DNA of 64,000 bases from assembly GCA_905178155.1 (NCBI GenBank), contig CAJINV010000018.1:848609-912608 (forward strand), written 5' to 3'. The notes beneath the pieces were generated by a model. That model did not search any database. It was not told where the DNA came from and saw nothing but the letters and a program-made list of their open reading frames with translations. The position numbers and the translations under genes were made by a program. This document shows positions 1 through 64,000 of this stretch, in pieces. Every line of letters starts with the position of its first letter. Position 1 is the stretch's first letter. The DNA comes from Amoebophrya sp. A120. Taxonomy: Eukaryota; Protista; Dinoflagellata.

Positions 1-185
1 GCTCTACCTCTAGTACAACTTTCTGGTCGTGCATCAAAGAAAAAAAGTTCGTCACGATCACTCATGCGCATTTTCGCAAGACAAAACTTTCTGTCATGCG
101 TAAAAATGCATCACAGCCACACTTCATAAGGGATTTCTCTAGTGTTTCTGCAATACAGAGGAAAGTTGTGATGCTAAAAAAATTT

Positions 186-2432
186 CTAAATGCAAAGCCT
201 GCAAGTTAATGACTGTGATATATAAACTTTTTTCTCTCCATATCGTGATCCCAACATCACGTTCCTCGCCTCGCGAAAAATCCTCTCTTCCAGCATTTTA
301 TCCCGGCAGTCGAGAATGGCCATGCACCGGATGATCTGCACGCACGCAAGCCAATCCAGCTTCTCAAACTCTTTGATCGCTTTCACTTTGCCCAACACCT
401 GCACCAAAAGCGCGTCCTCGCGCCACCGCCACTCGGTGCAGAAGTACAAAATGTTAGACAGATTCCGCAAGTGCACCTTCGCTAATTTTGCGGACGGTTT
501 GTGGCAGAAGATGGCGTTGAAGCAGGCTGGGTGGGATAACTTCCTCAAAAATTCTATCAGTTCTAAAAACGTCCCCACCCCATAGGTGTCACACAATAAA
601 TTCTGCATGCCAAAAACGTTTCTCATGCGCAGGCCCATGAGAAGTAATTTCCAGTCGTGTTTTGGAATTTGTTATGCTATAATCAGCATGCTAAGCTACC
701 TCTGTGATGCTTCCGAACTAGCTGAACAGGACTACAATACAAGGACGGACTTGTCATGCCAAACAACCAAAGTTGGCTGATTTGTCTAGCAGATTTCCGA
801 TCGTGTTGCTGATGTGGGGACGTTTTTACTCAGGATAAATTCCTCCGCAAAGGGAAAGACCAGCCGTTCCTGGTCGCTGTCTGGCAGTTTCGCCATTCCG
901 TACAGAAAACTTCCGACATCGTGACAGTTCCAAAACAGGGCAGGTGGTTCTCGGGCGGCTACAGGCGTAGTGGCAGGGACAGTTGGGCAGCTGGCAACAA
1001 CATCACCGCTGCTTTGCGACTGCGATTCCGAACAAGAATGTGAGGACAGATCACTATCGCGCTCGCCATTAACAAATCCCGGCGACTTTCCTGGTTCGAG
1101 AAACGAATCAGTGTCCTGACCGAGCACTGCTTCCCGGCCTGTTGTCCTGACCGGCCGTTGTCCTGACGGAGCACTGCTTTCGTCCGACAGACCAGAGCCT
1201 CCGCTTTCGGAAAAATTGTCGCGCTCGACGCAATTATCCGCACATTTGGACGACGAGTTTTTATCAGTATCAACAGCATCAATCTCCGGCACGAATAGCA
1301 TTTTCACAGCGAACTCGAACCCTTCCTTCGCCAGGTCGAGGGGTAAAATCCCCCTGCCGCCGAAGGACGCGATGACGTTTGTGAACTCACGGCAGTGTGC
1401 TGGCTCCTTCAGCTGGTCCCAACGTTTTTGCAGCAATCCCTCCATTTCACTGAAAGGCAGATGCAGCTCCGCGCTGGCCGCCGCGGTGAGGGAGCACACC
1501 AGGTCGGTGGGCCGGGCGTGCGGCGAACGCCAGATTTCGTAGAATGTGTCTTGTAATGAAGAGACTGGCGCTGGGCCTCGGGAAATCAAGTCGCCACTGG
1601 TATTGTGGCTTATTTTCTGAAGACCCTTGCCTTCGTTCATGGTTCTTCTTGTAGAAGGCGAGTCATTTTGATTGTTCTGATGGTTGGCGGGGACAAAGGC
1701 TCCTGCTCCGCCTCGTCGTCGCGCTTCTGCTTTGCTCGCTACCGAGCCTTGTTTCTTTCCACCGCCGCCGCGTACAGCTGCGTCGTGGAGCTTGTCCAGC
1801 AAACATTGCACCTCCGGGTGCGCCGTTTGCTCCGCAAGAAACTCAGACGTGTGTTTTCGTAGTTCTGCGGTAGGAACTACGCCTCGGTGCTGATGGGCAG
1901 GTCTTGAAGATGTCGCTTTCGTTTTGATGTTCGTCGACGAGCTGCGAGAAGCGCACTTCGTTGGTCCGTCTCCCCCCGTTGAAATGGAAATCGACACACG
2001 AGAGTTAGGACAGCCAAACACTTGGCTCCTCGTCCTTGGGCCTTTCGCTGCTGCCGCAGGAGTGGCTATTCCCTCTGGGGGTACAACAACTTCGACAGCC
2101 GCGGAGGAGAAACCCCTCGTTGTTCTAGTAGTGAATCCTGCTTGTTCTCCTGGTGATGAATTTACAACGGTTGAGGAACTCCACGCAAGGTGCCCCCCCT
2201 GCAACAACTGACAGTTACAAGCTGTACTTCTACAACAGCTGACCCGATGCTGAAAAACTCCCCCTCGGACTCCGCTGGTGTTGTATAGCTGCAAAAGCCG
2301 CGCAAGGAAGAGGTCGACATTTTTGTATGCATACTGCTGCAGTGCTGGTGCAACCACTGTTGAGTATGTCCTCGATGGATTCATCATCCCGCACGGACGC
2401 CGGGCCTCTCGGTGAAGCGGCTGCAGGCTCAT
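186..2432 (-). CDS. Uncharacterised protein, possibly organelle-targeted helical-repeat (RAP/HPR/OPR-like); split by introner 555-837; both ends uncertain
   Basis: ORFs 786..2498 and 186..554 join in frame (AEEF|LRKL) after removing the element plus the aattc TSD; Arg/Ser-rich N-terminus; helical segments DVGSFLYGMAKL, LRNLSNILYF, LACVQIIRCMAIL. Confidence 0.55.
555..837. mobile_element. Introner family D
   Basis: TAT..ATA ends; TIR AAAACGTCCCCAC / GTGGGGACGTTTT; TSD aattc/aattc. Confidence 0.9.
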
Positions 2433-5646: not shown

Positions 5647-8417
5647 TTACAACGGATACCCGGCCGGTCGTAAATCTCCCGGGTACCCGATCCACCACTC
5701 GAACCCGTCTGTATTATCTCCAACCATTTGAATCCGGTTATTTCCATCTTCCCGAACGTTGGAGATCCTGAAGTGAAAGTCCACCAGTTGCTTAACATCT
5801 GTCTTGCTGTTCCAAACGGTAATTTTGTCACCCTTCTCGCTGTCGGAATGCTCAATCTCCCAGTCCCGCCAGGACGTGACTCGGTCTTTTCCCAAGTCCC
5901 CGGAGCTGTAGCGCCCCTTCCGGTAGATGACGTTTTCAATCACAAACTCCCGGTAGTGCTGCATGGGCGTGTAGATATGCACTAACGCTGGGCAAAGGTC
6001 GTCGCAATAGAGGCCGGACAGCTTCCAGTTTCCGATCTCCTTGTCCGGTGCGAACGCCCAGTCGCTATTGTAAGAATACGATGCTCCGATGATCGCCGAG
6101 GGAAGCGCTTCTTTATCCCAAGACTTAAACCTCGTGTGCAGAATCGTGATGTCTTTCGCGTTATCAAATGCAAAAATGTCTGGGTTTGGAAGGGTGCGCG
6201 GTTCGCCATGCAGCTTTTCCATGACCCATGAGGTCTGGAATGCAGCACCTAGCATGACAGATTCTGCGCGATCTCTCTCATGCCTATCCTGCATGAGAAA
6301 CTCCCGACCGACTTGGTCAAAACTGGCCGAGTTTTGGTAATCATGCAACACAGATTTTTGCATGCTTCAGATAGAGCATGACAAGTAGCATTCTTCCAGA
6401 CGCAGACCCAGACATTTTTACATTTGATACGCGTACACGTTCTGCAGGTTTTGCGGCGCCCAGCCCATCTGGAACACCGGGTCGTTCGGGCCTTTCCACA
6501 CGGAGATCCGCTCTATCAAAAGGAAAAATCCCCCCTCCCCAAATCGCAAACGAACTTTGTGATGCTGTATTTGAGTACACAAGTCGACTTGTAATGCTAG
6601 AAGGCCAAGAGACGCAGCTGTGGCCTCGTTTGCAGGCACTTTGTCATGCTGTTTCCCACTTCCAGCTGCCCTCTGTCGTGCTGAAGACGCAAGGCTTTCC
6701 CACGCCAACCAGCACTACAGTCCGCATCTTTTCCCTTCTAGCATGACAAAGCTGACTTGTGACCACAAATCTGCATCACAAATTTCTAGTTTGAGTATGG
6801 GGTGGGGGGATTTTTCATTTTGATACGCTCGTACTGAATGTCCGAGTGGTAAGTTTTCAGCCCGTCGTCGTTCGTGTGCACCAGACTGTCCTTGAACACA
6901 CTGCCCGGGTACAGCGTGAGCCCGTCGGTCTGCAAGAACCAGCCGCCGACTTGCTTGTAGTCCGTGGCGAAAATCTTTGGCTCGTTGTACATGTCGTGGG
7001 AATTAAACGGCGGGTCGGTCATGGTCACCCCGTGGAGGATAAAGGTCTGCTGCCCGGGTGAACCGTTCCAGGATTTCCACATGCGCAGGGACGCAGCGTC
7101 CGACTTCACACTCTCGTAGGATCTGTCGGGATTCGCCTGGTACACGTAATCAGACCCGGTCAATACCCCGTAGCCCGTCGCCGCGTAGGTCCCATTCTCC
7201 TCGGCGTATTGCCAGTGAACCGCAGATTTCACGTACGCCCAGTGCGCGAAGTGCACCCAGGCTTGGGATTCCGTCAGCGTCATGTGGTTTTCGCCGCGTT
7301 TTCCAGTTTTCCCTTGTCGGTTTGTGTCCATCCAGTAGACACCCGGGGGGAAATAGAGAACTTTCTTAGCGGATTTGTAGTTGTCCAAACTGATCGGGCC
7401 GGGTTGCATCACGAGAATTTCGTTCTCTTCGTAGACGGAAAAAGGGTCTTTCTCCCGCTCCAGCGGCGGCGAGACGAAAAGAAACAAGACATGTTTCGGC
7501 TCCCGGCCGACAATAGCGCCATCGGCCGCTCGGAAAACGATTTGTGACTCAATATCGTCGAACTCGATGGAGATTTGCCGGATCTTGGGGTTGGCCTTGT
7601 CGAAAGGGATCAAAAGCTCGATAGAATTTTCGTCAAGCGCTTTATCCGTGTTGACGACAATGTCCTCGTTGTTGAAAACCGGTTTGACGTGGCAACTGCT
7701 GAACCACTTTTTCAAATCCACCCCAGACTTTCCACCATCCCTGGCCGTGAGTTTCACCTTGATCGTGTTCTTGTAAACGATCTGCGTATACGCCATGGTC
7801 TGCTGTTTCACCAAAGCATCTATCCCATCGTCATCTTTCCCCGTAGGGATTCGGTCCAAAGGCCAGGGCCGTTGCCAGTCCCGGGGTCGTTGAATTTTCC
7901 CCTTCCCGCCGCGCGGAAGGGTCTCGAACACGAAAGATGGCTGCTCATCGACAGACACTTTCCAGTGTAAGGACTCCCGGACGAAGTCTGCCCGTTTCCA
8001 TCCGTCCCAGCTGTAGTCCGTCCGGCCGTTCGGCGGTTTGGGTTGTACGCAGAAGTCCACGTCGGGGGACAGGCAAAGCGACGTGTCCTCGGGAGCAGTC
8101 GGCGGGCGGACAATAAGTGGCATTTGCCCTCCAGGTTGAGGTTGTTGCAGTTTTTCTTTTTCATCTTCGGGATTCTTGACATTGATGAGGACTGAAGCAG
8201 TTTTACTACCAGGATCCACCTCAGGGCTCTTCTTTTCCTTTCCTCCAGGAGTGGTCGGCGCCCCACCTAATTCTTTCGTCGAAGAAGTTGTACCCGCGAT
8301 TACACCCGCCTCGCCGCTACTCGTATTAACCCAAGTGGACGAAACGGGAAGACCACATACAGGATCAATTAAATGTAAAAAGAAAGAAAAGATAAAGTGT
8401 GTTGCAGGGAACATCAT
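5647..8417 (-). CDS. Secreted glycoside hydrolase family 49 (dextranase/isopullulanase-like), 3 exons
   Basis: Signal-like MMFPATHFIFSFFLHLI; motifs LYFPPGVYWM, YKQVGGWFLQTDG, HTNDDGLKTYHS; splices restore QYE|RISVWKGPNDPVFQMGW and NVYA|KDITILHTRF. Confidence 0.85.
6162..6429. mobile_element. Introner family B
   Basis: TIR TATCAAATGCAAAAATGTCTGGG; TSD cgcgt/cgcgt. Confidence 0.95.
6514..6825. mobile_element. Introner family D variant
   Basis: TIR TATCAAAANGAAAAATCCCCC; TSD cgctc/cgctc. Confidence 0.9.
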
Positions 8418-10366: not shown

Positions 10367-13300
10367 TCATGGCGCGCGCGCGCTCAAAATCTTCCATGCA
10401 CAACACGTGGCTTCTAAATGAAGTTGAGGAACATCGTAGCGCTTCAGAAGAAACATTTTCTTGAACTTAGTCCCACCTGGTAGCGATCTGCTCCGTGGCT
10501 TGCTTTGCAGAGAGTGCAAAGCGGCAATCGGCCGAGACCGTAGCTGCTCGTAGATGGCTTGGTTCTGCGGGTAATGCGGATTATGGGCGTACACGTCCGG
10601 AAGATTTGCAGCTGCTTGTGGCCCTCCTGCTGTACCAAGTGGCCCCATGTCCAGCCCGCTATGCATTACAAAAGTATCGTACTAGTAGAAATAGCATTAC
10701 AAATCTTTCCAGAGTGAAAAATGCAATTTGTAATGCTGAATAGGCTAAGAAACCAGATTTGTCATGCATGACTGCAATTACTACGCGTACGATGCTTTTG
10801 CACAGGATACCCGCCATGAAACAGCAAATTCGAGTTCGACCCGATCGTATGAAGTGCGAAAATGTCTGGGTCTGCAGGGTGGAACTTGTAATGCTGTCTG
10901 CGCATTCTGAAAATATCTGTGTTGCATGAGCAGCGAGAGGAGTCAGTTCTTGGCACGCGGAGAGGGCATTTCTGATGCGTAATTAGCATCAAGAAGCTCT
11001 CAAAAAATCTGTGATGCTAGCACCAGCATCACAGACCTCACGGGTCATGCAAAATGTGCATGACACGTCCCGGCTCTTCCAGACCCAGACATATTTGCAT
11101 TTGATAGATCGCGCCTGCTGCTTGTTGCGAAGCTCCTGCTGCGAGGGAGCTGTTGTACTGGTAGTGCATTTGCATCATCTTCTGTTGGTGTAATTCTTGC
11201 TCCATCTGCTGCTGTTGCTGGAGTTGCAGCTGCCGCATCGCGGGGTTGTACTGTTGCTGCTGCTCCAAAAATTGTACTGGCGATGTAGAGGAACTTGTCC
11301 CCCCAGCAGCATTATTGCCATTCAAATTATTCCCACCACCAAAGTGATGCTGTGTTGGTGTAGTTGTACTGCCTCTACCGGCGAAATGTTCTTGCAGCAG
11401 ATGCTCCCTCGCCATTGCCGCGCGCCCGCCTGGAGGCACGGATCGGGGCCTCGTTGAGGAGCTGGAGGATGCGCCAGCACCGGAAGATGAATTCATGCGC
11501 AGGGCTTGCGCCCGTCGCCGAATTTGGTTCACCTGGTCCGTCGAGGAAAAATCGAAATTTCCGTGCAGCAAGTTTTCCATGATCTCCTTATGCTCTGGAT
11601 CGCTCTGCAATTGCTGCATCAAGGAGGAAGCTGCTCCACCCGCCCCGAAGTTATTGTCATTGCTCCCCAATCCATCATAACCCCTTCTGCTCATCCGGCC
11701 TCGCGCCGCGTGGTAACTTTCCACGGCCTCCGCGATGTCCACGTGGTCGTCTTCAGCGCCAAATCGAACTGCTTTTTGGATCGATGACGCTGTTTGGGGC
11801 AGTACTGGCACGGGTTCCGAAGAGGAGCCTCCTCCTCCTCCTGTTGGCTCCGTCTCGCTCATGTTGGGCGGACTCGTTTGCGGCACGGCCTGCTGGTGCT
11901 CCCCCGCCTGCTGGATCATCAGCTCGCCCTGGTACGGTACTACCCCGTTCATCAATACCGGCATCATCATCCCGTTGTCAGAATGCGCGCCACTGGCAAG
12001 GTTCTGCAGCGTATTAGCCGGTATGGGCAGCTCGGTGTCGACGTAGTGCGGGGGGTGTTGCTGGTCGTTGTCAACACCATTTGAGTTGGTGTTGTACTGC
12101 TGCATCTGCCGTTGCTGAAATTCGAACTCATCCGTCTGGTGCCGTTGGTGCTGTCCGCCGCTTGCTAGGGGCGTACTCGAGCTGGAACTTGACGGCTGGT
12201 TCCCTGTGTATAACGGGTTGGACGTTGTGGTAAGAACCACATGCGGATGCTGGTGCAGCGCACCACCAGAACCTCCAGCTGCACTGGAACTACTACTCGA
12301 CGTACTGTAAACGACCCAATGCTGGAGCAACCCCAGCATGTGCTCGATCTGGTTTCGCAGCCGCACCTTCGTGATGGCCGGCATGCCCTCGCTCTGCTGG
12401 ATCTCCTGCAGTTTGTCCAACGCGGACTCCCACTTCGTGTGCAGGCTCTGGTCGAAGTGCCGCTGCTTCTCGGACATGCTGACAAGTTCGGACCGCAGCT
12501 GCGCGATCTCCCGCGCCTCGTCTTTGCCGTCTCGGATCCGCAGCTCCTCTTGCAGTGCCTCAATCTTGGAGTGCGCCATATCCAGCTCGTTCTGGTACGC
12601 CATAATGCTGTCGTCGCGTTTATGCAATACAAATTTCCCGTACATGTACAAAATGCATCACAAACTTCGCTAACTTTGAATGCCAAACTTGTCATGCTGA
12701 CTAAGATTGAAGGCAAGTTTTGTCATGCAGAGACAGCATTTGTACGTGTACAGGAAATTTACTGTGGATAGCGCTCGCGGAGGCGCTGGGTGAAAGTCCG
12801 CATGATGTCCCGCTGCTTGAGTAGAAGCGACTTGTATCTGGTCGTTGATCATGGGGAGGGTAATAAATGTGTAGTGACGCTGCATATTCATATTCGTAAT
12901 TTCATCCGTTAAAGTTCGACACAAGTAGTTGCAGAAGTGCTGAAGAAGAAAGAAGTGACAATACAATCGAATACATTTGTTAATGTTAACTCTTCTAACA
13001 GACATTAGACATAGTTCTACCTCTGTATCTGCTTCCGGTCCTCGGTGATGGTGGATTTTTCACCCTCGAGCTGGGCGAGCTTTTGTTCGTATGCACGGTA
13101 AAAGAACAAGTATCGCAATGTTCGCAATGGCACTACTTAACACTAGTTGTAGTTCTAGATGTATGACTTGCATTTACAAATTTCTTCAACCTAAAATGTT
13201 ATGATGGATCAGCATCAGTTACATGCACAACTTTAACTGCAAGTGCAATCACGACGAGTCTACGATTTTTCCTTTGCTTTTGCACTGAATACTTCATAGT

Positions 13301-16300
13301 GCTCCACGATGGAGGCCGTGCCCTCGGTCTGGCGGTCTGAGGTCGAGTTCACGCCGCTGTTGGCCACGCCCGTCTGCCCGTCGACGGAGCTCGCCCCGTC
13401 CCGAAAAAACTGCGGCACTTCGGACAACCGACGCTCCAGCTCTATGGCGCTCTCAAACGTTACATTCTCAACTGTTACATGGATTTGTCATGCAAAATTG
13501 CCATGAGCCACGAGACGATCAAGCTACCTCGCATGACAAATCCCCAAAGGGCTCAGCAGCGCCTAAATCTGTGCCGAATTTGTGATGCGAGAATTGCAAG
13601 CTTGCCCCGTTCACTGTTGCGGTTCTTGCATCACAAATCCGTGTAACAGTTGAGAATGTAACAGTTGAGAATGCCATAAGCTCTCGTCGCTGCTTGCGCT
13701 CCGCGTGCAACGTGTGGGTCAGGGCAAGCTCGCGGTCTGGGTGGATAATGGGGAGATGAGAGTTTGGGGAATTTTCTCGAGACGATGAGGATGCTGTGTC
13801 AACTACGCAGCAACACAAGATAATGGTGCATTTGCTCGACGTGCTCATCTTCGACTACTAGGAAAAGCATAGTACATTGACCGCAATGGCAAACTACAAA
13901 AACCATAGTACCATTCTGCCCCCCAAAGGGTTCCTGGAGCGGTGATCTTCCATTGTTGGACAAGTCGTTCAAATCGATCATGCCGCCACCGCCCCCGGGG
14001 TGGCTCCCGTTCAGACTCGGGAAGTTCGGGTCCCCGCTCCGCCCGGCCCCCGACCCCGGACCGCCGCCGAGGCCCCCTGGGTACAGCAGTCCGCTGCTGG
14101 TTCCGGGTGACCGCCCGATGTTTTTCTTCGTTTTTTCCATGTGCAAGGCCTCGTTCAGGCGACGAATTTCGTCGCGGGCCTGCTTCAGCAAGTGGTTGTC
14201 CTCTTCCGCGCTTCGTATCTTCACAATTTATCACGATGAAAAAAGAGTTTGCATACAGAGTGGAAGAACGCAATTCGCAGTGGTGCGACATTGAGATTAT
14301 TGTCTTCTGCTTCTTCAGAGCACCAACTGTGTGCGGGTTCTAGGAAAAAGAGCATAGTGATAAAGCTGCTCTGGCAGCCATCAACAACTCTATTTCATGC
14401 ACATCATGAAGCATTTTTCTTTTTGCCTGGATAAATTGCTGTGCACATTCACGTTGGCGATGTTCACAATGGACTTCGCGCGGTTCATGAATTTCAGCGT
14501 GGAAAGGGACTCCTGGAAAGCCTCGTAGGCAGGCGAGATCATGCCGACGATGGTGGTGACACAGTTACCGCCGAGGGAATCCTCCAGCAGCCGGGTCAGC
14601 TTGGAGTCCCGGTAGGGGATGTGGCTCCGGGTCGGGTTTTTGTTGCTGTCCGCCAGGGCGTGGATCACGTTGCCGAGGGACAGCAAAGACGTGTTGATCT
14701 TTTTCGACTCCTCCAGCTGCTGGCCCTTCGTATGGCGTTCTCAAGTGTTACATTCTCAACTGTTACATGAATTTGTAATGCAAGAACGGCAAAAATGAAT
14801 GGGGGAAGCTTGCGCCTCTCGCATTACAGATTTGGCAAAGATTTACATGCTATTTAGCCCCTTCGGAGATTTGTCATGCGAAGCAGCTTAATGGTGGCGA
14901 GCTTGGTGGCAAATTTGCATGACGAATCATGTAACAGTTGAGAATGTAACATTTGAGAATCCCATACTTCGCACCGGTCCAGTGCACACGCTCGGACCCC
15001 GCCAGGTCCACCAGGTTTAATTTCGCAATCCGCACCACCTGCTTCTGCTCGCCCGCGTTGAAAGTTGACGTCGCGCTGGTTGCAGCAGCAGCCCCGACAG
15101 CTGCCCCCGCGTCAGCGTGGTCTGCTCCCGTGGCCTGAACTGGATGATCGTGCTGAAGTTGTTCCGCGCCGCCTTCGTTAGTGGGAGATGGATTCCTGGT
15201 GCCACCTTCTCCGCTATTCACAATGGTACTCTGCTCCACAAGAATCATGAACACGGTGTGACTGCGACTGGAGACCTCGTTGGACTTGGTCTGCGCGATC
15301 ATGCGGGCTTTGCCGCCCTTCTCGTATCCAGGAAGAAACAACCAACATCCCCATCCATTTTTTGCATGACAAATAGTGTATTTTATGCATGTTTTGCATC
15401 ACAAATTGGATGGGGATGGGCGTTTTTTCCTGGATCATATCTCGATCAGCGAGTACACTTCCTTCGGCGACCGCACGATCCATTCCGACAGGTTGTCGAC
15501 GAAAACGCCGCGCTTCTTGTCCTCCCGAATGTTCATGCTCGTCACCGGCTCGGTTTCCTGCTGCCCCCAGTTGCGCTCCTGGCTGCGCTCGCGGAGGTTC
15601 GGAATGGCGTGCTGGTTCCTGTTGGAGGTTTTGCTTTTGTCATTGTCGTGGTGATTGGAAAATTAAAATTTCCTATAGTCGTTAGATTCAGATTTGATTG
15701 CCTTCTTCAAGACAACGGGGTTGTAGAGCAGAAAAGTCAAACGGCAACGTCCGGGACATAATTTGAAAAGACTACGAACGAACGTCGTACTTCTGCTGTT
15801 TATCTCGGTCGTTATTTCCCGGCTGCCCTCCGGACACGGCCCCCGCAGCTACCGAATTGGGGGGCTTAAGCAAATCCGATATTTGCTCGTTGTAGATCTG
15901 CAGGTAGCTGGCCCGCACGATGAAGCGGGCCTTGCGGTCTTCGAAATTAGCGATCGAGTCGAATATTGCATCCATCGACCGTGCTATAATCCCCCGCTTC
16001 TCGTCCTTTCGGTCGTAACAGAAGCCCTCCATCGTGTGGGTCTTACCTTTTTTGTCAATCAGATGGCGGACGATCATTCGCGATTCTTTTGTCAGCAACA
16101 TAATTATTTGGAAATAAGAACGCACTTCATTAACCCGAACAACTCGAGCCGCTTGCCAAGACACTTGGTTGTCAACATCATCCAACTAAAGAACCAAACC
16201 CCTAGTCGGTAGAACTAGCTCATACCTGTTCCCGTCTGTCCATAGGCTAAAATGGTTGCGTTGTAGCCCTCGAGGACTGCCTGCGTCGCGTAGTGCCCGG

Positions 16301-17355: not shown

Positions 17356-17510
17356 TATGAACTGCAAAAGTATAAGTATCGTACTCGTAGTATTGCAATA
17401 GAAATTACCAAAGCATGCCAAATGGGATTTCTCATGCTGATTTAGCTTGGCGAAGAAATTTGTCTTGCATGACTGCGATTAGTACGAGTACGATACTTTT
17501 GCACAGGATA
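17356..17510. mobile_element. Introner family A, outside any recognised CDS
   Basis: Family A TIRs; TSD aaatt/aaatt. Confidence 0.85.
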
Positions 17511-47700: not shown

Positions 47701-49367
47701 GTCGGGGTCGGCTCCACGTCGGATACGTCATCGTCCCAATTGTCCTCGTCTTCCTTTACCTTCGGCTCCTCCGTATTTGGTGCGGTATCACGGCAATAAA
47801 ATTATCCATCTTCTGGTTGTTCAACAAGAAGAGCCAAAGACAACAAGTTTGATGCTGTCCGCCACAGAGACGTCAGGATCCGAGTCCAGAAGTCTGGTCG
47901 CGATACAGAATCACTTATCATAGCACCTTTTGAAACTCCTGCACCATAGATATCATGTTTGTCACCGTGACGGACACAGATAGTAGTAGTGCATGCAATA
48001 CAATAAATTTGTTGCCTTCTTGTTGATACAACTAGCTACATGATGTATTCGCTTGCATACGTCTCCTGTTTCGCCTTTGCTGCGGGCTTTTCCGCCGGAG
48101 GTGCAGCCGGCTCCTCTTTTGGCACGACGATGGGGACTGAGAAGTGGGGATTTGGGGCGCAAGAATAAAATTTATTTTGCATACGGAGGTGCAACCAGGA
48201 GGGCCCTTCCTGAATGAATCAAGGAGGTATAGGTATTTCTTGTGCTTTATTTTTCCACCAGGATATTGAGTCCTGTTCGTCAGCTTAAAACAAGTTCTGA
48301 ACAAACTGCTATTAAACATCATCGCTCCTACCTGGCTTTGCTGCTGGTTGTGCAGCTTTCTTCGCGGCTGCGGCAGCCTTGGCTGCCTCTGCTTTTGCCT
48401 TCTTCTGGGCATTGTACTCCTCTAGTGTCATTTCCTTTATGGCTTGGCTCAGATGTTACAATCTCAAGCGTTACAATAGAATTTGGAAATCTGTGATGCA
48501 AGAAGTGCATGATCTAGCCAAGTCTCATAGGACTGCGCATGACAAGTTCCGGAGTCCCAGTCCGCCCTACAATCTGGCGAAATTTGGTATTGCAGAAAGT
48601 GGAATGCTGTGCGAGTCTGTCATGCTCATCATGCAACACAAATTCCAGACTCTATTGTAACGCCTGAGATTGTAACGTTTGAGCAGGTCATATCCTTTGG
48701 CTCGGCTTTCTTCTTCGGCTGATCACCATCTGCATAGGTAGTTCGATTATGATTTTCCATGACTTTCACTGGCTATCAACATGTAACATTGATTCTCATG
48801 AACGTGTTTGGTAGGCCTTCATGACACAGACAGCGCATGAGAACGTCATCCTCAACAATATGGCTGAGAATCTACGAGCGGATCGCAACAGAATGTTCAT
48901 AATGAAAGCAGTCAAGAAACTTTTCTACTTTTTGGGCTTTTGCCGTGTTTCCCGTTGCCCTTTGATGCCTTCCCGCCGTTCTGGTAGCCGCCCTGGTTGT
49001 TATCCCACTGCTGACCACCCTGTTGCCACTGCTGATTTGGATCCCACTGCTGCCCGCCCCACTGTTGCTGTCCTCCCCACTGCTGGCCTTGGTCCCACTG
49101 TGGCTGGCCACCTGGGAATCAACAAATTCGTGCAAAGTAGTTAAAGTATAAATATCATGGTGATCGTTTTGACTGTGAAAGGGACAAAAACATGCACACG
49201 AGAAGCTAAGTAGTAAGGGCTTCTTTCTAACATCCAGATTTAGAAGTTCTTATACCCCATTGCTGTTGCTGCCATTGTTGCTGTGGGTTGTAAAATTGCT
49301 GTCCATACTGCTGTTGCGGGTATCCGTAGGCCGGTTGGCCGTACCCCTGTTGAAATCCGTTGTTCAT
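44739..49367 (-). CDS. SUP35: Eukaryotic peptide chain release factor GTP-binding subunit eRF3 (Sup35/GSPT)
   Basis: [119 protein letters not shown]. Confidence 0.95.
44902..45283. mobile_element. Decayed B-like introner
   Basis: TAT..ATA ends and residual motifs; flanks cgcgc/cgaac; removal gives PKF|AKVND. Confidence 0.65.
48438..48692. mobile_element. Introner family C variant
   Basis: GTTACAATCTCARGCGTTACAATAG TIR; TSD tcctt/tcctt. Confidence 0.9.
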
Positions 49368-50907: not shown

Positions 50908-51328
50908 CGGACTAAACCTGGCCCATACCATCGGCGGAGGCAGTTGCTTACTATCCAGTTGGTAATCTGCTGCCAAAAATCCAAAAAAAATCCGAAGGCA
51001 GTCGCGCTCGAGGTGTCGCACGCAAAAATCTGAGCTGTTTTGTGTTGCGTCCCGAGCAAAATAATAATTACTATTGAATAGTAACCAACTGCCTCCGCCG
51101 ATGGTATGGACCAGGTTTGGTCCGTCTCCGTTACTATTGAATAGTAACTCGCGCGCACTTTTGGCGCATTTTTGGCGCACACTCGGGCGCACTTTTGGCA
51201 CACAGAAAATGGACTTTGAAGCGCCTCCGAATCTCTTGAAAGTGCAAGCGTTCGGATTTTTGGCAGCAGATTACCAACTGGATAGTAAGCAACTGCCTCC
51301 GCCGATGGTATGGGCCAGGTTTGGTCCG
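50908..51328. repeat. 75-bp inverted repeat (50908-50982 vs 51254-51328)
   Basis: Arms are reverse complements with about 1 mismatch; partial third copy near 51086-51125. Confidence 0.9.
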
Positions 51329-53871: not shown

Positions 53872-56800
53872 CTACACCTTCATGCCCTGCAGGAACGACT
53901 TTGCCTCGCCGAGGGCTTCGATTTCACCAGTCATGTGCTCCTGTCGGATGTCGATATCAACTGCAAAAATGTCTGGGTGTGGGTCTGGAAGATTGCCAGG
54001 TTTGTAATGCATATCTTGCATGGCCCATGATGCCTGTGATGCATGATTTAGCATCACAGATTTTCGAAGCGCTTCCTGATGCCTATTCCGCATGAGAGAC
54101 GCCCTCTTGGCATATTTAAGAATCGGACTCCTCTTGCTGGTCATGCAACACATATTTTTTTGGAATGCGAAGACAGCATGACAAACCTTCCATTCTCCCC
54201 GACCCAGACATGTCTGCATTTGATAGTCGAAGTTATCGAACAAAAACTTGCAGTCGTCCTTCCACTGCTTCAGCTGCAAGTCCTCATTGTACTTCTCGTC
54301 CATTGTGAACTTCTTTTTTTCCGTTTTCGCCTGCAGGTCCTCTTCCGCTGCGGCCTTCTCCTCGCGAAGCTGCGACAAAAACGCTTTCTTATCCTTAATG
54401 GATTCTTATGGATGGGAAAAAAACTGCGGTCTGATAGTTCATCTTTCTTTTGTGTGCGTCCTGTGGTCGGTGTTTTTCTTAAAGTTAAAATCGACCGGCT
54501 TCCAAGCGATATGGATATTTTCATTTGCCTTGCCGAAGAGACCACAGATGCAAAATCCCTCGTGGTTCTCGCGCAGAGATGAGTATACTAAGCGTAAGCA
54601 TCACTGCCGTGTTTTCAACATAAAAAACTAAAACACTGCGACACAGTTATGTCGCCCTGCTCAAGATTGTAAGTACGCACGAAATCTTATGAGCACATAC
54701 AAATAGTCCACACCCGGCTGCAAATGACATATTTAAAAACCAGCATCAGACACACATGTTTTTTTCCCCCTCGATAGCTCATTTGCATCCTTTACGGCCT
54801 TTTCGTATTCCGCCTGACTGGCCTTCTCGTTCTGGATGCGAACCTCCGCGGACTTCTCCGTGTCTGCGATGATGGTGGCAATCATGGTCATGACCTTGTT
54901 GCCCCCCGCGGACTTGGCGTAGGTCTTGAATTTGGGCTGGTCGGCCCTGGCCTGCAGCAACAGCTTCGCACCGTACACCTTTGCGAGCACTTCCTCCGCC
55001 TTCTTCAACACCTTGATGGAAGCTTTCTCGTCCGCGAGCGCAGGCTATGAGAGTGCACAACTCCCCTTCCAACACCAACTCATACATTTGTATAGCACGA
55101 GCTGCAACTACCGCAGCAATGCTATGCCACGAATGTAGGTTTTGCATGACAAGTCCGGACATGGGTTGCAGTGCTATTTCTTGGGCGTCCAAAACTTGTC
55201 ATGCGCAGAGTGCTTTCAAAAGCACGAGGTGGGTTCGGTATTTCGCATGACAAATGAGGGGGAGAGGAAGTTGCGTACTCTCATATGGCCTGGTAGTCCG
55301 CGTTCTCCTGGGCCCGGATCTCGGAGAGCTCCTTCAGTTCCGTCTATCCCACGAAAAAAGTGTTACAGTTACACATTTGTAGTCAATTCAGCAACACAAA
55401 TTTCTCGTCTGCATGTAGTGCAGAAATCGTAGGGGAAAACACCTATGAAACGGGGCTCCTATGCATATCCGGCACGACAAAGGTTGCCTGTCTTGCTTGT
55501 TTCGCAACACAATGTGTAACTGTAACACTTTTTTTTGCAATACCTTCTCCTCCTTCTCCAGCGCTTCGGTGGTCTCGTCCATGGCCTGCTCAAGCCCCTG
55601 GATTTTGATCTCGAGCCGCTCCTTCGCGGCGTTCAGGTTGTCGATATGCATTGCAAATATGTCAGGATCTGGAAACTTGTGACGCAAGGCACGGAATAGT
55701 GAGCACATCGTAATGCGCTACCAAGCATGACAAGTTTTTCCGAAGTACTACGTTGCGTATCCCGCATGAGAAACTTCGTTTTTGCATAGCAGGCAAGAGA
55801 AACCCTTTGCGATGATTGGCAACACAAAGTCCAGAGTCATGCCAGACCAGCATGACAAACACAGATCTCGCATTTTCCCCGACCCAGACGTCTTTGAATT
55901 TGATAGTCGATATCCGTCTGCAATTTTGTGACCAGCGTGGTCCGGTCGTTGATCTCGGTGGTGCAGGTATCTTTTTGTTATCCACAGGAGAAAGTTTCCA
56001 GTGCGCAACGCTGTACAAATGCAGTTTCTGCATGAAGTGTTTCTCTCTGAACCATATACCTACCCGCCATTCGGCATGACAAGTGGCCTGCCTTCATGTA
56101 TGTTGTCGAAATTTGAAGTGCATTTTGTACGTCGTGTACGGGAAGAAAGTAAATTCGCATCGCATATTTGCTTCACGTCGTCTGCCATTTGCTTCTTAAT
56201 ATCCGCTACCAGGGCGTCGATGGCGGAGATGACCGGTGCAAACGCGTCGGCCTTCACCTTTTGCGCCAGGATCAGCAGTGCCTTGTTGGCGTATCGCTGT
56301 CCCTATCAAATGCAAAAATGTCTGGGTCTGGAAAAATCCAAGATTTGTCATGCATATTTATCATGACCCATGATGCCGGTAATGCATGCCCTAGCATCAC
56401 AGGTTTTTTGAGGGATTCTTGATGCCCATTCCGCATGACAAATGCCCTCTCCGCGTAGCAAAAATTAGATTCCTTTTGCTGCTCATGCAACACAAATTTT
56501 TTAGACATCGAAACGCAGCATCACGAGGTGCATTCTTCCAGACCCACACACTTTTACATTTGATAGCCCGGCCCGGCGGAGGATCTTCTGTGCCTCCGAG
56601 ATGCGCTGTTCCCGCTGTGGGATTCTCAATTGTTACATTCTCAACTGTTACAGGAATTTGTCATGCAGAAGCACCATCATCATCCTCACGATCAAGCTGC
56701 TCCGCATGACAAATTTGGCAAGGCCTAAACCGCGCCTAAATCTGTGCGGAATTTGTATGCTACAGGTGCAACCTTCCCCCTTGTACTTTTCCAATTCTTG

Positions 56801-59491
56801 CATCACAAGCTCATGTAACAGTTGAGAATGTAACAGTTGAGAACGCCATACCCGCTCCTCCAGGGCCGAGGACGACGCGGCTCCCTGCAGCTGCAGAAAC
56901 CCGAGGGCAATGCACTGCAAAAGCATCCTACTAGTAGTATAAACGCATTACAAATTTCACCAGCATGAGACATAAAATTTGTAATGCTGATTTACCCCAA
57001 GAAAAAGATTTGTAACGCATGACTGCAATACGAGTACGATACTTTTGCACAGGATAAGGGCGCGCCCGAACAGCGCGTGAGCCTCGTCCGAGTTCAGGAA
57101 TTCCAGCGCCTTGCCCACCGCGGCGATTTCCTCCGCGCGGGCCTTGGTTCGCTCCTCAAACTCCGCGTCCGCAAGGGTGCACGTCTCCGTTGCCTCGGCC
57201 AGCGTGGTGGTGTCGGCCTCGATATAACAATGCACAACTCCCCCTCCCCCTCATTTGTATATTAGCATGAACGTCAATACACGCATCAGCAAGAATGCCG
57301 GTTTTGCATGACAAATTTTCACTGGAGCAGAGCGCTATTTGGGCTGCCAGAACTTGTCATGCAAACAGTGCCAAGAGGCAAACGATGGATTGGGTATTTT
57401 GCACGACAAATGAGGGGGAGGACGTCGAGTTGTGCACTGTCATACTCGAGGCCCGCCTCGCACAATGCCTTCTTCGCCGTGTTCTCTGCGAGCATTTTCA
57501 TGGCGTCGGCCAACTTTTCCTTCTCCTTCTTCAACGTGGCTTGGTCCTGTCATATATATGTGGATTTCGGGTTTGATGCACATTTTTTGGTCTAGAATCA
57601 AAATCGATAGCCGCAGTGTAACTACAAGCATTGTAAATTAGCTGCAGTTCTTCAGGGTGAAACAAGTAGCTGAAACTGCAGTAAAAATGCAGATGAAGTA
57701 AAAACACATCTATTTACCTTTGCGATCATCTCTTCTTTCATCTTCTTCTGGGCCGCAAAATTCTCGAGCGCTGCTGCTTCAGTTGAGTATGGCGGGGAAA
57801 GATGAAAACCGTGTGGTGTTGTCCTGACTATGGTCGCGTCGCAGCTGGATACGCCTACAACAGAAATTTTTGACGATGAAAATGTCAGCATTTGCAGTTT
57901 GCATCATCATGCCTGGATGGGGTGCTATCAGCGGACACGTCATCGTCGATGCAAAAACAATCCCCAACCTACGTCGAGGACAACTACACCGAGTTTACTA
58001 TTCTCTCCCCTTCCATATTTCCCGCGACTCTTTCAAATCTGCGGTGAAGGTGTCGAGCATGTTCTCGAGAATTCCAAAAATTTCACCGCTCTGGGAGGAA
58101 TACGCCGAGAAAGTTGGCTGCTGCAGAAAGTCCTGTACCGACTCGTTCTGCGACTCGGACAGCTCGTTTGAATTATGCAATGCAAAAATATAAATATCGG
58201 GCAAGCGTAGTCCACATTGATTTTGCTTCACACGCTTGTGGTGATCTACCAAAATCACATGGGAATATCAAAAGCGGTTTTCATGAAAACTTGTCATGCT
58301 GTGACGCAATGCTTGGTACTACGAGGCACGATAGTTTTGCTCAACATCTTCATACTTATGCCTCAGCTGCAGCAACCTGACGGATTTGGACAGGGTTTTT
58401 TTCACTGTCATCAAGACACCGGTGGCGGAGTCTTCCTGCAGAAAGCTGTTGTGCTTTTTCAAAACAGTGAGTGCGGACTTCAGTGCGCCAATGGCCTGGA
58501 TCATCTCCTTCTCTTCGGCCGAAAAGGACGCGAGTTCCTTCGCCCGCATCTCCGTGGCCTCCTCCAGCGCTGCGGAATTTCCCTCGATGGCTTTCTCTAG
58601 GGCTTTGATTTCCGCGCCGGCTTCGGCCTGTCGCCCCGTAGCGGACTCGATGTTGGCGGTGGACTGTGAGATGCAGGCTTTGTTCGCCTCGATGCTGGCT
58701 TTGGTGTCTTATGGCGTTCTCAACTGTAGTTACATTTTCAACTGCTACATGGATTTGTGATGCAAGAATGGGAAAAGTGAAAGGGTGGAGATTGCACCTG
58801 TAGCATTACAAATTCCGCACAGATTTAGGCGCTGTTGAGCCCTAGGCAAGTTTGTCATGCGAAGCAGCTTGATCGCTTGGATGATGATGGTGCTTTTGCG
58901 TGACAAATTCCTGTAACAGTTGAGAATGTAACGTTTGAGAACCCCATATGTCTTTCTTCGTGGTTTTGCACCAGCAGTTCATCTTCTTGTACGTGGCTTG
59001 GTCTTCTTCGCCCTCCGTAGGTGTATGCATTGCAAAATAAGTATCGCACTCGTAGGAATTATTGCAATGACGCATGAAAAAGTTTTCTTTTTCGAGTAAA
59101 ATCAGCATGACAAACTCTTGTCGTGCTGAGCTAATTTGTAATGCAATAACTGCTAGTACGATACTTTTGCGATTCATAAACGAGCTGCGTCTGCATGTCC
59201 TTCAACAACTTGATCACTTTCGACACGGGCTATGCATTGCAAAAGTATCATCGCAGTGGTAGTTGTAAATGCCATATCGCATGACAAGTCTCCTTCCTTC
59301 AACTCAATCGGCATTACAACATCTTCTAAAGAAAATATTTTTTGACAAAATTTGTGATGCGACAGCTGCTACTTCTATACAACTTTCGCAATGCGTACAG
59401 GCCTTTCCTTCTTCAAAAACGTAGCAGCGGTGGTGGACAAAAAGGATGCGAGGAGAACGTGGGCCGTTCTCCTCATCCTGCAGTTCCGCAT
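53872..59491 (-). CDS. Secreted long coiled-coil protein of a dinoflagellate-type family, carrying 14 introners
   Basis: Signal-like RTAHVLLASFLSTTAAT; ERPVSKVIKLLKDMQTQLVTEGEEDQATYKKMNCWC; SQSGEIFGILENMLDTFTADL; FEERTKARAEEIAAVGKALEFL; CKFLFDNFDIRQEHM..EIEALGEAKSFLQGM*. Confidence 0.85.
53955..54225. mobile_element. Introner family B
   Basis: TSD gtcga/gtcga. Confidence 0.92.
54407..54776. mobile_element. Old introner, distinct family
   Basis: TIR TATSGAKGGGAAAAAAAC..GTCTGAT; TSD decayed; removal gives DANE|SIKDK. Confidence 0.7.
55046..55285. mobile_element. Introner family E
   Basis: TIR TATGAGAGTRCRCAACT; TSD decayed; frame restored on removal. Confidence 0.85.
55345..55542. mobile_element. 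Introner family G
   Basis: TIR AAAAAAGTGTTACAGTTACACATT; TSD ccgtc/ccttc. Confidence 0.85.
55645..55905. mobile_element. Introner family B
   Basis: TSD gtcga/gtcga. Confidence 0.9.
55979..56166. mobile_element. Introner, F-like and diverged
   Basis: TSD tttgt/tttgc; removal gives VKQ|KDTCTTE. Confidence 0.75.
56304..56565. mobile_element. Introner family B
   Basis: Family B TIRs; flanks gtccc/gcccg. Confidence 0.88.
56616..56850. mobile_element. Introner family C (left end TGT)
   Basis: TSD cccgc/cccgc. Confidence 0.9.
56909..57056. mobile_element. Introner family A (left end AAT)
   Basis: TSD agggc/agggc. Confidence 0.9.
57223..57444. mobile_element. Introner family E
   Basis: TSD ctcga/ctcga. 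Confidence 0.9.
58174..58354. mobile_element. Decayed introner
   Basis: TAT..ATA ends; removing it plus 5 nt gives RHK|NELSES. Confidence 0.6.
58710..58948. mobile_element. Introner family C
   Basis: TSD tgtct/tgtct. Confidence 0.92.
59024..59178. mobile_element. Introner family A
   Basis: Family A TIRs; TSD decayed; removal gives QLV|TEGEED. Confidence 0.85.
59231..59397. mobile_element. Introner family A, diverged
   Basis: TAT..GTA ends; TSD cgggc/caggc. Confidence 0.8.
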
Positions 59492-61534: not shown

Positions 61535-64000
61535 TCACCGAAACAGCTCTGGCACCGGCGCGGACACGTACTTGCTGGGCATGTGCGGCTGCAAGTGATC
61601 GTATCCGGGAACGTAGGGCGTGATCACACCAAACGCCCCATGAACGCACGCGTGATTTTTCATCCCGGTCGTTGCGCTCCCCATTCCGTACCCCATTCCC
61701 GCTTCCCGTCGGCTGTACCAGAGATAGTCAAGGTGTCGCTTGGCCTCCTCCTTTTTCTCGTATTTGGTCAGTTTCGCGCTGCTCTCGATTTCGTAGATCT
61801 TGTAGAGACCGTTTTTGTCGTCGCAATTGTCCCGTAGATACTTTGACCGCAGGCAGCTGACGTGGTTGCAGTTGAAGTACGTGGCCGACTCGCCGTGCAG
61901 CGCCCGCCGCTGCAGCATTTCCTCGTACAGGAGCGGCTCTGTCGCCTGGATACTGCCGCCTGATTCGTCTTTCGGCTCGTTCCATATCTCCATGTTGTAC
62001 AGGGTGAGAAAGTAGAGCCCAAAGTGCACCAAGACAAGCAGGAACTTCACCTCCTGCAGATCCAGGTAGCCGACCCGGTCCCCAAAAATCGCCGCCACGT
62101 AGAGGATATGAACTGAAAAAGTATTGCATCGCATTCGTATAAATGCATTACAAATTTCCTCAGCATGAGAAATACACTTTGTAATGCGAATTTACCTTAA
62201 GAAAAAGATTTGTAATGCACGATTGCAATACGAGTACTATACTTTTGCACAGGATAGAGAATCTGGAAGAGGCAGAATCCCCAAAGCAGGAAGGCGATTT
62301 TGCACGAAGAATTGCTGGTGATCGAAGTCTATGAACTGCAAAAGGAGTACCTACTATCGTACTAGTTGAAATTGCAATACATCTTGCTCAGCATTACACA
62401 TGGAATTTGTCGTGCTGATTCAGCTCACGAGAAAAATTCCTCATGCATAACTGCAATATTAGTACGAATGCGATACTTTTACAGTTGATAGAGTCTTTGC
62501 GTACAGCCGGTTCGTGGCCAACAGGCAGAGGTAGTAGTGGAGAACCAGGACAAGCACCAGAAAGACCGACAAAAAACACACGTAATCCACGTCAAGTTGG
62601 TATCCTGTGCGAAAGATGCACGGTGATAGTTCTACTGACCTAGCGCTAGCGCATTGCAGCTGCACAAATTTTTTTTATCCTTATGCACAAAAAAATATCT
62701 CCGAACAATTTTTGCACAGGATAGACGGAGCCAGATGACGAAGGCAAACACCGTGACCAGGAGCGTGACGTACTTGGACGGGTAGTCGAACCGGGCGGGC
62801 ATGATGAGCCTCTCCGCCGACATTTTGCTGAAGCTACGGCTGTATCAAATGTAAAAATGTCTGCATCTGGAAACTTGTGATGCTGGGTGGCGTCTCATGA
62901 TGAGGCCACAAATGCTGGCGCAGCATGACAAGTTTCTGAGCTCCCGGATGTTGCCTATTCTGCATGACAAACTGCGTTTCTGCATGACGGAAAAACGGAG
63001 CTCTTGGGTAACGTGCATTACAGACTTAAGAGTCATGCCAGACAAGCATGACAAACATGCATTCTTCTAGACCCAGACACTTTTGCATTTGATAGGCTGC
63101 GGATCACGTGTTTGGCGATGTAGTTGGGTAGGAGAATGTCAAACAGCAGGTCGAAGAGCAGGACGGAAACCGAAATATCCTGTGCAAAAGCATCGCAATC
63201 GTAGCAATTGCAATTCTGCATTTACAAATCTCCATCCCAAGGCAAAACGGCATGACAAAGTCCATTTGTAGTCATGCTGAGGTTCTTTATAAATGCAATT
63301 ACTACTAGTACGATGCTTTTGCAGTTCATACGAGAACGGAAACAGCAGCTCCCACACTTCCATCGCTAGCAGTGCGTCCACCTGCTGACTCTCCGTCCGC
63401 GGGGTGCCGGCGGAGTTGGTGGCGACGACACTGTAGCCATCGTTTTCGTAGGCCGCACTCTGGGTTTCGTAAACCATGTCTTCGATCTTTCCCTGGCTCG
63501 CGATCCACATGCAGAGGAAATCGAACATGAGCATGGCAATCACGGCAAAATAGGTGACGACGAAAAAGACCAGGTTTCGCGTTTCTCCGGACGTGAATCC
63601 GACGGAGTCGATATCCTGAGTAAAAACATCCCCACCCCAGAGTTCTTATCATGCAGATTTGCAATTGCAGGAAGATTTGTAATGCGCACCCCCATGAGAG
63701 GCATTTCCAATCGTGTTTTGGAATTTATGATGCCGTAAACAGAATAGGTAGATGGGTTTGTGATGCGGTTGAACTTGCTAGACTGCACTACAATGCAGAA
63801 AGGAACTTGTCATGCGCGACTCCCAAAGCTTCTGGATTTGTGTCGCGAGATCCCCGTCTTGGCTCTGGTGTGGGGACGTTTTTCCTCTCAATAATCGAAG
63901 ATGTTCCCGCCCACCCGGATCAGCTGCATGGCCCCCACGGCGGGCACGAGCCCGGCGATCCAGTCGGTTAGCATGGGCATCTCGATCCCGGGGGTGCGTG
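61535..64000 (-). CDS. Polytopic membrane protein (TMC/OSCA/anoctamin-like C-terminal half); 5' part lies outside the window
   Basis: At least 6 hydrophobic segments in a continuous frame after removing 6 introners; FDYPSKYVTLLVTVFAFVIW motif; family assignment is tentative. Confidence 0.65.
62107..62256. mobile_element. Introner family A
   Basis: TSD gagga/gagaa. Confidence 0.88.
62330..62490. mobile_element. Introner family A
   Basis: TSD aagtc/gagtc. Confidence 0.88.
62601..62723. mobile_element. Introner, short A-like
   Basis: TATCCTGTGC / GCACAGGATA; flanks gttgg/gacgg. Confidence 0.8.
62843..63094. mobile_element. Introner family B
   Basis: TSD ggctg/ggctg. Confidence 0.9.
63176..63330. 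mobile_element. Introner family A
   Basis: TSD cgaaa/cgaga. Confidence 0.88.
63612..63893. mobile_element. Introner family D
   Basis: TSD gtcga/atcga. Confidence 0.9.

What the first reader, a model, noticed from the sequence alone, without database searches (positions are those of the whole stretch)
555..63893. One internal motif, TGTNATGC/GCATNACA, is shared by otherwise unrelated introner families
Seen: families with different TIRs all carry several copies in both orientations, such as ttgtcatgc, gcatgaca, tgtgatgc, gcatcaca, ttgtaatgc and gcattaca (e.g. in 13443-13678, 26944-27223, 31645-31799, 21971-22189). By eye the motif is much rarer in exons. Inference: it is a common protein-binding site (transposase or a dedicated splicing factor) or forms nested hairpins, and may be the actual intron-definition code.
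Basis: partly seen in the sequence, partly recalled or inferred. Interest (0 to 1): 0.8.

Follow-up and report, generated by a model that had tools for sequence, protein, structure and literature searches.

The report
Shared docking code inside jumping introns
Small jumping DNA elements that are cut out of this organism's messenger RNAs nearly all carry the same short, regularly spaced internal word, which is likely a docking site for the still unknown protein that copies them around the genome rather than the signal that gets them spliced out.

Summary
141 of 144 exact TGTNATGC/GCATNACA sites lie in 60 TAT...ATA elements with 5-bp target duplications (22% of the window), about 165-fold over the rest. 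These match the published Amoebophrya A120-type introners. The fuller motif is RRATTTGTVATGC. All 12 multi-copy clusters carry it (window plus 249 elements from another assembly). It is far better conserved than its neighbours, sits 32-55 bp from each end, and recurs 30-33 bp apart in 8 of 12 clusters. The 'intron-definition code' reading is not supported: sites are strand-neutral (93:90); a family whose strong sites all point one way is spliced in both orientations; seven non-canonical introns have no site; facing sites show no covariation; protection is strongest on lineages that left daughter copies. Best reading (inferred): a double-stranded-DNA binding site for the mobilising transposase or its cofactor, like subterminal motifs of MITEs. 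No such protein was found. Against it, the motif decays only about half as fast as its neighbours in older copies. The elements are known; I found no description of the motif.

The parts
31..242 (.). older element (cluster 10 type, left TAT changed), 3 exact sites
555..837 (+). family D element, 3 exact sites (strand field = orientation against the family reference)
6162..6429 (+). family A element, 2 exact sites
6514..6825 (+). family G element, 5 exact sites (44F 76F 128F 227R 259R)
10660..10809 (+). family B element, 4 exact sites, one inside the left TIR
10848..11106 (-). family A element, 4 exact sites
12621..12770 (+). B-related (F) element in kinesin gene, 3 exact sites
13090..13291 (.). 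old B-like TAT..ATA intron in kinesin gene, no motif site; 8 stops if kept
13443..13678 (+). family C element, 4 exact sites (43F 88R 138F 185R)
14229..14433 (.). old TAT..ATA intron in kinesin gene, no motif site; 6 stops if kept
14731..14966 (-). family C element splitting the kinesin motor domain, 3 exact sites
15325..15439 (+). family H element, 2 sites in the same sense, 32 bp apart
17356..17510 (+). family B element outside any long frame, 0 exact and 4 degenerate sites
18085..19165 (+). family E element with about 860 bp inserted, 1 exact site
20279..20438 (-). family B element, 2 exact sites
20523..20682 (-). family B element, 3 exact sites
21971..22189 (+). family E element, 3 exact sites
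22275..22535 (+). family A element, 2 exact sites
25854..25994 (+). family B element, 0 exact and 3 degenerate sites
26073..26234 (+). family B element, 4 exact sites
26654..26892 (+). family C element, 4 exact sites; absent from the RNA contig
26944..27223 (+). family D element, 5 sites all TGTNATGC on +; absent from the RNA contig
28647..28908 (-). family A element, 3 exact sites
29114..29349 (+). family C element, 2 exact sites
31437..31583 (-). family B element, 2 exact sites; absent from the RNA contig
31645..31799 (-). family B element, 3 exact sites; absent from the RNA contig
32871..33017 (+). family B element, 2 exact sites; RNA contig skips 152 nt = element plus 5
36464..36613 (+). 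B-related (F) element in gamma-COP-like gene, 2 exact sites
37080..37338 (-). family A element in gamma-COP-like gene, 3 exact sites
37556..37790 (+). family C element in gamma-COP-like gene, 3 exact sites
38319..38580 (+). family A element in gamma-COP-like gene, 3 exact sites
38871..39265 (+). family A element with a 133-bp insert, 4 exact sites
39570..39854 (.). non-canonical intron (GT..AC on the RNA) with decayed arms and no motif site; removal supported by RNA contig length
40134..40412 (-). family D element, 5 sites all GCATNACA on +; removal supported by RNA contig length
40845..41003 (-). family B element, 2 exact sites
42106..42370 (-). family A element, 4 exact sites
44902..45283 (.). 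old TAT..ATA intron in eRF3-like gene, 1 site
47774..48059 (.). old TAT..ATA intron in eRF3-like gene, no site
48438..48692 (+). C-related element (cluster 11), 3 exact sites
53955..54225 (+). family A element, 4 exact sites
54407..54776 (.). old TAT..ATA intron, arms 13 of 16 complementary, no site
55046..55285 (-). family E element, 3 exact sites
55345..55542 (.). older TAT..ATA intron, 0 exact sites and 1 matrix site
55645..55905 (+). family A element, 2 exact sites
55979..56166 (.). old B-like TAT..ATA intron, 1 site
56304..56565 (+). family A element, 3 exact sites
56616..56850 (+). family C element (left end TGT), 3 exact sites
56909..57056 (+). family B element (left end AAT), 2 exact sites
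57223..57444 (-). family E element, 2 exact sites
57788..58017 (.). old TAT..ATA intron, no site
58174..58354 (.). old B-like TAT..ATA intron, 1 site
58710..58948 (-). family C element, 3 exact sites
59024..59178 (-). family B element, 2 exact sites
59231..59397 (-). divergent B element, 3 exact sites
62107..62256 (+). family B element, 3 exact sites
62330..62490 (+). family B element, 1 exact site
62601..62723 (.). singleton TAT..ATA element with good arms and no site; keeping it shifts the frame
62843..63094 (+). family A element, 5 exact sites
63176..63330 (-). family B element, 1 exact site
63612..63893 (+). family D element, 3 exact sites

Best explanation
The motif (RRATTTGTVATGC) is a conserved, regularly spaced internal repeat of small TAT...ATA transposon-like introns, and is likely a double-stranded-DNA binding site for the one transposase or cofactor that would mobilise all these families. 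Shown: enrichment, conservation, position, spacing, strand neutrality, and exact removal of element plus one 5-bp duplication from RNA contigs. Inferred: several protein units would bind 3-5 helical turns inside each end and about 3 turns apart, on one face of the helix, and help pair the two short and poorly conserved TAT ends for an integrase-like enzyme that makes the 5-bp duplication. Copies that lose the sites would stop spreading but still be spliced, likely through the TAT..ATA ends and their pairing.
For: Ends and duplication size are shared by all families, as expected for one mobiliser. The motif is in 12 of 12 multi-copy clusters. Pairwise identity is 0.88-0.96 at motif cores against 0.56-0.76 at other interior positions in 5 of 5 families, with sites defined from third sequences. 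On family trees the core/other change ratio is 0.00-0.12 on internal branches and 0.27-0.44 on terminal branches in 5 of 5 clusters; pooled 206:40 against 1118:705, Fisher p 7e-13. That is the pattern expected if selection acts on copies that leave daughters. All 12 cluster representatives have a site 32-55 bp from both ends. Same-sense spacing of 30-33 bp occurs in 8 of 12 clusters; on average 6.1 of 12 random members against 1.1 under random placement. Same-sense distances follow a 10.25-10.5-bp phase (mean cosine 0.41 vs -0.05; 0.16 with p 0.008 once 30-33 is left out). Transcript-strand counts are 93 to 90. Site density falls with decay of the duplication (rho 0.64, n 58), while 21 of 22 ends stay TAT/ATA in the 11 copies with 2-3 of 5 matches. 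Precedent: PMC1636448 (abstract), cooperative transposase binding to subterminal motifs of a MITE. An A120 family with integrase-like frames is listed with '5-bp TSD, TA/TA Termini' (PMC12130899 passages and one supplement row).
Against: No binding protein or autonomous element was found: the 5 distinct long TIR-bounded candidates (457-1,031 bp) in the 148 loci have no stop-free stretch over 151 aa. PMC7789003 (section 16) reports no transposase in A120 and argues against general transposase mobilisation. Among 338 full-length copies, core mismatch rises with duplication decay at about half the slope of other positions (0.024 vs 0.046); fully neutral decay would give similar slopes, though older master lineages inflate the second figure. 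A terminal-over-internal excess also arises under host purifying selection, and the TIR positions show a weaker excess too. Family D is asymmetric (all strong sites one way), which is unusual for end-binding sites. The elements are short, so sites near ends are partly expected. Spacings could be inherited from one ancestor. The likeness of motif and TIR seen in families A and B weakens when families are weighted equally.
Confidence: 0.57

Rival explanations
1. A host DNA-binding or chromatin protein, not the transposase, reads the phased sites. Elements that bind it would spread or be tolerated better, for example through packaging, escape from silencing, or co-transcriptional marking of the intron.
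For: All DNA-level signs (strand neutrality, 10.5-bp phase, conservation) fit any DNA binder. No transposase is reported in A120. The slower-than-neighbour decay in older copies fits a residual host benefit.
Against: The motif is nearly absent from host sequence (3 sites in 49.9 kb), including canonical introns and gene flanks, which a general host factor would be expected to use. Protection is strongest on internal branches.
Confidence: 0.17
2. The motif is an RNA splicing signal (intron-definition code or enhancer) that makes up for the missing U1 snRNA.
For: It is confined to non-canonical introns (26 of 31 TAT..ATA introns against 2 of 15 canonical ones have a matrix site, before two boundary fixes). 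U1 was not detected in A25 or A120. Terminal-branch ratios stay below 1 and decay is slow.
Against: No strand bias (93:90, taking all host genes as minus-strand). Family D 26944 shows the RNA only GCAUNACA and 40134 only UGUNAUGC, yet both are removed. Seven non-canonical introns have no site: 39570 (RNA length), and 13090, 14229, 47774, 54407, 57788, 62601 (reading frame only). Distance to the splice junction differs between families.
Confidence: 0.12
3. Facing copies pair as nested hairpins in RNA or single-stranded DNA, and the structure is what is selected.
For: 73 of 183 sites are predicted to pair with another site; families A, C and G place facing sites symmetrically.
Against: The variable base does not covary: the mirror pair of family A is complementary in 0.28 of copies against 0.45 expected, and 0 of 2 same-branch changes are concordant; no facing pair in 5 clusters has more than one concordant joint change. 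Structure alone does not explain one fixed sequence across families. D (0 of 20) and H (0 of 2) sites do not pair with each other.
Confidence: 0.07
4. The motif is a passive relic of a common ancestor with no present function.
For: Families share ends, some site layouts (F then R 45-48 bp on; R then F 34-35 bp on) and weak residual similarity in 8 of 28 pairs.
Against: Cores change about 9 times more slowly than neighbours on internal branches within each family, while the sequence between sites has diverged to near background across families.
Confidence: 0.07

Closest known systems
Introner elements of Amoebophrya sp. A120 (Farhat et al. 2021, PMC7789003; seen: abstract, passages, section 16, term search of its one supplement held as text)
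   Same: Non-canonical introns of about 240 nt with inverted repeats starting TAT, seven freer bases, then a run of A, and short direct repeats at the junction.
   Different: The passages I saw describe only terminal repeats. No internal motif appears in them, and a search of the main text for TGT/GCAT and of the supplement for the 8-mers gave 0; figures are not held. That the window is A120 is inferred from the end signature, not shown.
A120 introner family 38, integrase/Ginger-like TIR element (Gozashti et al. 2025, PMC12130899; seen: passages and supplement rows)
   Same: 5-bp duplication and TA/TA termini; it is the best lead for the mobiliser.
   Different: About 810 bp with frames resembling Copia/Gypsy sequences; none occurs in this window or the 148 loci. 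Whether it carries the motif could not be checked.
Subterminal transposase-binding repeats of DNA transposons and MITEs, e.g. Emigrant/Lemi1 (PMC1636448, abstract); hAT, CACTA and Sleeping Beauty inner repeats (recalled, no call)
   Same: A short motif repeated in both orientations inside the ends of non-coding elements and kept better than the rest.
   Different: Here one motif spans at least 12 clusters with different TIR interiors, fills elements of only 110-320 bp, is helically phased, and the elements double as introns. Binding is untested and no transposase is known.
Non-conventional intron code of Euglena (PMC12501133, abstract)
   Same: A genome where most introns ignore GT-AG and rely on paired ends.
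   Different: The Euglena code is a paired signature at a fixed distance from the junctions and is proven by mutation. The analogue here would be the TAT..ATA ends, not the internal motif.

Membership tests
A120-type introner | Inverted repeats beginning TAT, then about 7 freer bases and at least AAA | tested here: met
   End matrix of 44 elements, TAT[C/G]...AAAA (TAT was also my search key); description
A120-type introner | Short direct repeat at the exon junction | tested here: met
   5-bp duplication perfect in 36 of 58, 4 of 5 in 10
A120-type introner | Removed from mRNA without GT-AG | tested here: met
   RNA contig gaps of 45, 56, 0 and 2,085 nt equal the exon sums for 13 elements; runs X1 and X3 are one sample and are contigs, not reads
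A120-type introner | Genome is Amoebophrya A120 | not testable with these tools
   No genome is held for the window; run names are coded
Non-autonomous TIR transposon (MITE) with subterminal binding sites | TIRs, constant duplication length, no coding capacity, many copies | tested here: met
   summed contig depth over elements in DNA-like run X5 far above unique sequence
Non-autonomous TIR transposon (MITE) with subterminal binding sites | Repeated conserved motif near both ends | tested here: met
Non-autonomous TIR transposon (MITE) with subterminal binding sites | A cognate autonomous element with the same ends | tested here: inconclusive
   None in the window or 405 kb of loci; only a small part of the genome was seen
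Non-autonomous TIR transposon (MITE) with subterminal binding sites | Transposase binds the motif | not testable with these tools
   Needs a pull-down or gel shift
Ginger-like / integrase-type element (A120 fam38) | 5-bp duplication with TA..TA termini | tested here: met
Ginger-like / integrase-type element (A120 fam38) | Integrase-like reading frame | tested here: inconclusive
   Short elements have none; no long partner found. The paper itself says fam38 lacks classical Ginger termini
RNA splicing code | Read on the transcript strand only | tested here: not met
   93 vs 90; family D removed in both orientations
RNA splicing code | Present in every intron of the class | tested here: not met
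   7 non-canonical introns without a site; only one has RNA support
RNA splicing code | Kept after insertion as firmly as the splice ends | tested here: inconclusive
   Lost in old copies while TAT/ATA stay, but decay is about half the neighbour rate
Conserved RNA or ssDNA hairpin | Compensatory change between paired sites | tested here: not met

The most novel reading that the evidence does not exclude
Because this lineage reportedly has neither a recognisable transposase nor U1 snRNA, one host-encoded protein reads the helically phased motif on DNA and does both jobs: it mobilises tens of thousands of elements and marks them co-transcriptionally for splicing. That would be an orientation-independent, DNA-encoded intron code, with old motif-free introns kept going by their paired ends alone.
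Probability: 0.12. Interest if true: 0.88.

Novelty: new variant of a known kind. Interest (0 to 1): 0.55.

Why it matters
How these introners move and how they are spliced are both open: the describing paper found no transposase in A120, no U1 snRNA and no family-specific repeat motif. A single phased motif across at least 12 clusters suggests that the many 'families' are one cross-mobilised system. It supplies a bait for catching the unknown mobiliser and a filter for finding the autonomous element. It also separates a likely mobility signal (internal) from a likely splicing signal (ends), which can be tested by mutation.

Tried and rejected
No whole genome is held, so genome-wide counts were not possible. 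The run search listed no holder on record as RNA; the raw-read run X8 laid only 2 partial reads and says nothing. The joint table was filled by the DNA-like run, so only its pieces table was usable; direct RNA joints for the motif-free kinesin introns remain unseen. A loose TIR scan gave 578 overlapping candidates and was replaced by a TAT..ATA scan, an end matrix and hand-built gene models; the catalogue is probably still missing old copies. A motif-pair scan of viral contigs gave 34 hits, none inside a TAT..ATA element; rejected as chance or coding repeats. The search for an autonomous element found none. The idea that the motif is a copy of the TIR holds for families A and B but is weak across families; kept only as a lead. 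Likeness to the RBFOX word UGCAUG and to the apicomplexan AP2 word TGCATGCA is recalled, not tested; two of the three common variants break both. Earlier findings: nothing on this motif; one loose analogue. Not in print as far as I saw: searches; none of the 20 listed papers (of 103) held 'introner'. Figures, files 13-14 of the PMC12130899 supplement, rows 22-58 of its A120 table other than fam38, and subscription papers were not seen.
Full report
What the window is. The sequence is eukaryotic and gene-dense. The five genes I modelled lie on the minus strand; exons of three match Adaptin_N, Kinesin and GTP_EFTU_D2 in Pfam, and the names gamma-COP and eRF3 are my reading of the translations. 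Exons are interrupted by 110-400-bp elements that begin TAT, end ATA, have inverted arms and sit in a 5-bp duplication. Removing element plus 5 bases restores unbroken frames. This fits the published introners of Amoebophrya A120, whose inverted repeats start TAT, run seven freer bases and end in As (PMC7789003 passages). The organism is inferred, not shown.

The observation. There are 144 exact sites. With 60 elements catalogued, 141 are inside and 3 outside, 10.0 against 0.06 per kb. Shuffles of the first 53 elements give 4 where 136 are seen. Fifteen canonical introns hold one exact site in 3,308 bp. The matrix form is RRATTTGTVATGC. A scan of metagenome contigs with the family A end gave 148 loci, all from contigs with the prefix JACKZZ01. 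No hit to the window is longer than an element or two, so they are other loci. They yielded 249 further elements, 246 with at least one exact site. The set is biased to family A by the pattern used. Together with 57 window elements they form 17 clusters, and all 12 with more than one member carry the motif. After masking the motif, 20 of 28 window family pairs score below z 3 and 8 at or above it. 'Unrelated' is therefore fair for the interiors but not for the ends.

It is under selection. Motif cores are 0.88-0.96 identical between copies against 0.56-0.76 for other interior bases, in five families. On trees of five clusters the core changes at 0.00-0.12 of the neighbour rate on internal branches and 0.27-0.44 on terminal branches (pooled p 7e-13). 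Core columns were chosen from the same sequences and loose columns align less well, so the ratios are approximate.

It looks like a DNA signal. On the transcript strand the two senses are 93 to 90 (taking all genes as minus-strand). Families A to E each occur in both orientations. Every cluster representative has a site 32-55 bp from each end; same-sense first sites cluster at 32-33 and 40-44. Same-sense neighbours lie 30-33 bp apart in 8 of 12 clusters. Same-sense distances fit a period of 10.25-10.5 bp, more weakly once the 30-33 class is removed. Pairs within one element are not independent and layouts may be inherited, so the phase is suggestive only.

It is not needed for splicing. RNA-type contigs from one sample skip the elements exactly: record gaps of 45 and 56 nt equal the small exons between elements, one join skips 152 nt (147 plus 5), and a 2,085-nt gap equals the exon sum of my gamma-COP model. 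That covers 13 elements. Among them are family D 26944 and 40134, whose strong sites present opposite words to the RNA. It also covers 39570-39854, a GT..AC intron with no site; I set its edges knowing the remaining length, so its removal (285 nt, 9 stops if kept) is firm and its exact edges are not. Six more TAT..ATA introns have no site and rest on reading frame alone. One of them, 13090, matches the family B profile, so there the motif was likely lost rather than never present. Site density falls as the duplication decays (rho 0.64, n 58) while TAT/ATA ends persist; ends were part of how I found these copies, which favours that result. Against a clean split: in 338 full-length copies core mismatch rises from 0.088 to 0.151 between 0 and 2 duplication mismatches, other positions from 0.198 to 0.293, a slope ratio near one half. 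TIR positions barely rise, but copies with lost ends were excluded by the search.

Hairpins. 73 of 183 sites are predicted to pair with another site, none in D or H. The variable base shows no compensatory change; the mirror pair of family A is complementary less often than chance.

Mechanism. Shown: a conserved, phased, strand-neutral repeat just inside the ends of elements that share termini and duplication length. Inferred: it is the binding site that lets one enzyme mobilise many families whose terminal repeats agree only loosely. A MITE whose transposase binds subterminal motifs cooperatively is the precedent (PMC1636448 abstract). An integrase-like A120 family with 5-bp duplication and TA termini is the candidate source. 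I found no autonomous element in what I could read, and the describing paper reports no transposase in A120, so a host DNA binder remains the main rival. The avoidance of T at the variable position would prevent an internal TATG, a copy of the terminus (TATG is the rarest NATG inside elements); this is a guess.

Verdict. Real and well above chance. The element class is known; the internal motif is not described in what I could search. It works like a subterminal transposon motif; membership awaits a binder. The splicing-code reading is unlikely. New variant of a known kind, interest 0.55.

Noticed in passing
window 18085-19165: Family E element holding about 860 bp of foreign sequence: an array of 10-bp repeats, an A-rich stretch and an 89-bp direct repeat; both ends and a 4-of-5 duplication are intact.
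   Followed up: partly
window 38871-39265: Family A element with a 133-bp insert flanked by a 17-bp duplication that includes one motif copy; still removed from the RNA by the length sum.
   Followed up: partly
window 39307-39486 and 57547-57717: Two GT-AG introns with traces of introners: the first has two degenerate sites 33 bp apart, the second arms 10 of 16 complementary. Possibly introners that became canonical introns.
   Followed up: partly
window 22720-24950: GC-rich tandem arrays (about 19-bp units with GGGGATCCGCC, then about 120-bp units with GGAATCCTCT repeats) between gene blocks; no motif sites.
   Followed up: no
window 49690-52310: Array of 21-bp units (AAAATCGATTTTGCATTGCAC) and long inverted repeats at 50889-51330 upstream of the eRF3-like gene. 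The unit resembles the family B terminal sequence.
   Followed up: no
window 56616 and 56909: Elements whose left end reads TGT or AAT instead of TAT, with perfect duplications, in an open reading frame: one terminal mismatch seems tolerated.
   Followed up: partly
L062:2994-4024: A 1,031-bp element with family A ends and 11 exact sites, apparently other elements nested inside it.
   Followed up: no
L001-L148: Perfect 5-bp duplications show almost no base preference (each base 0.19-0.30 per position), so insertion seems to need no target sequence.
   Followed up: yes
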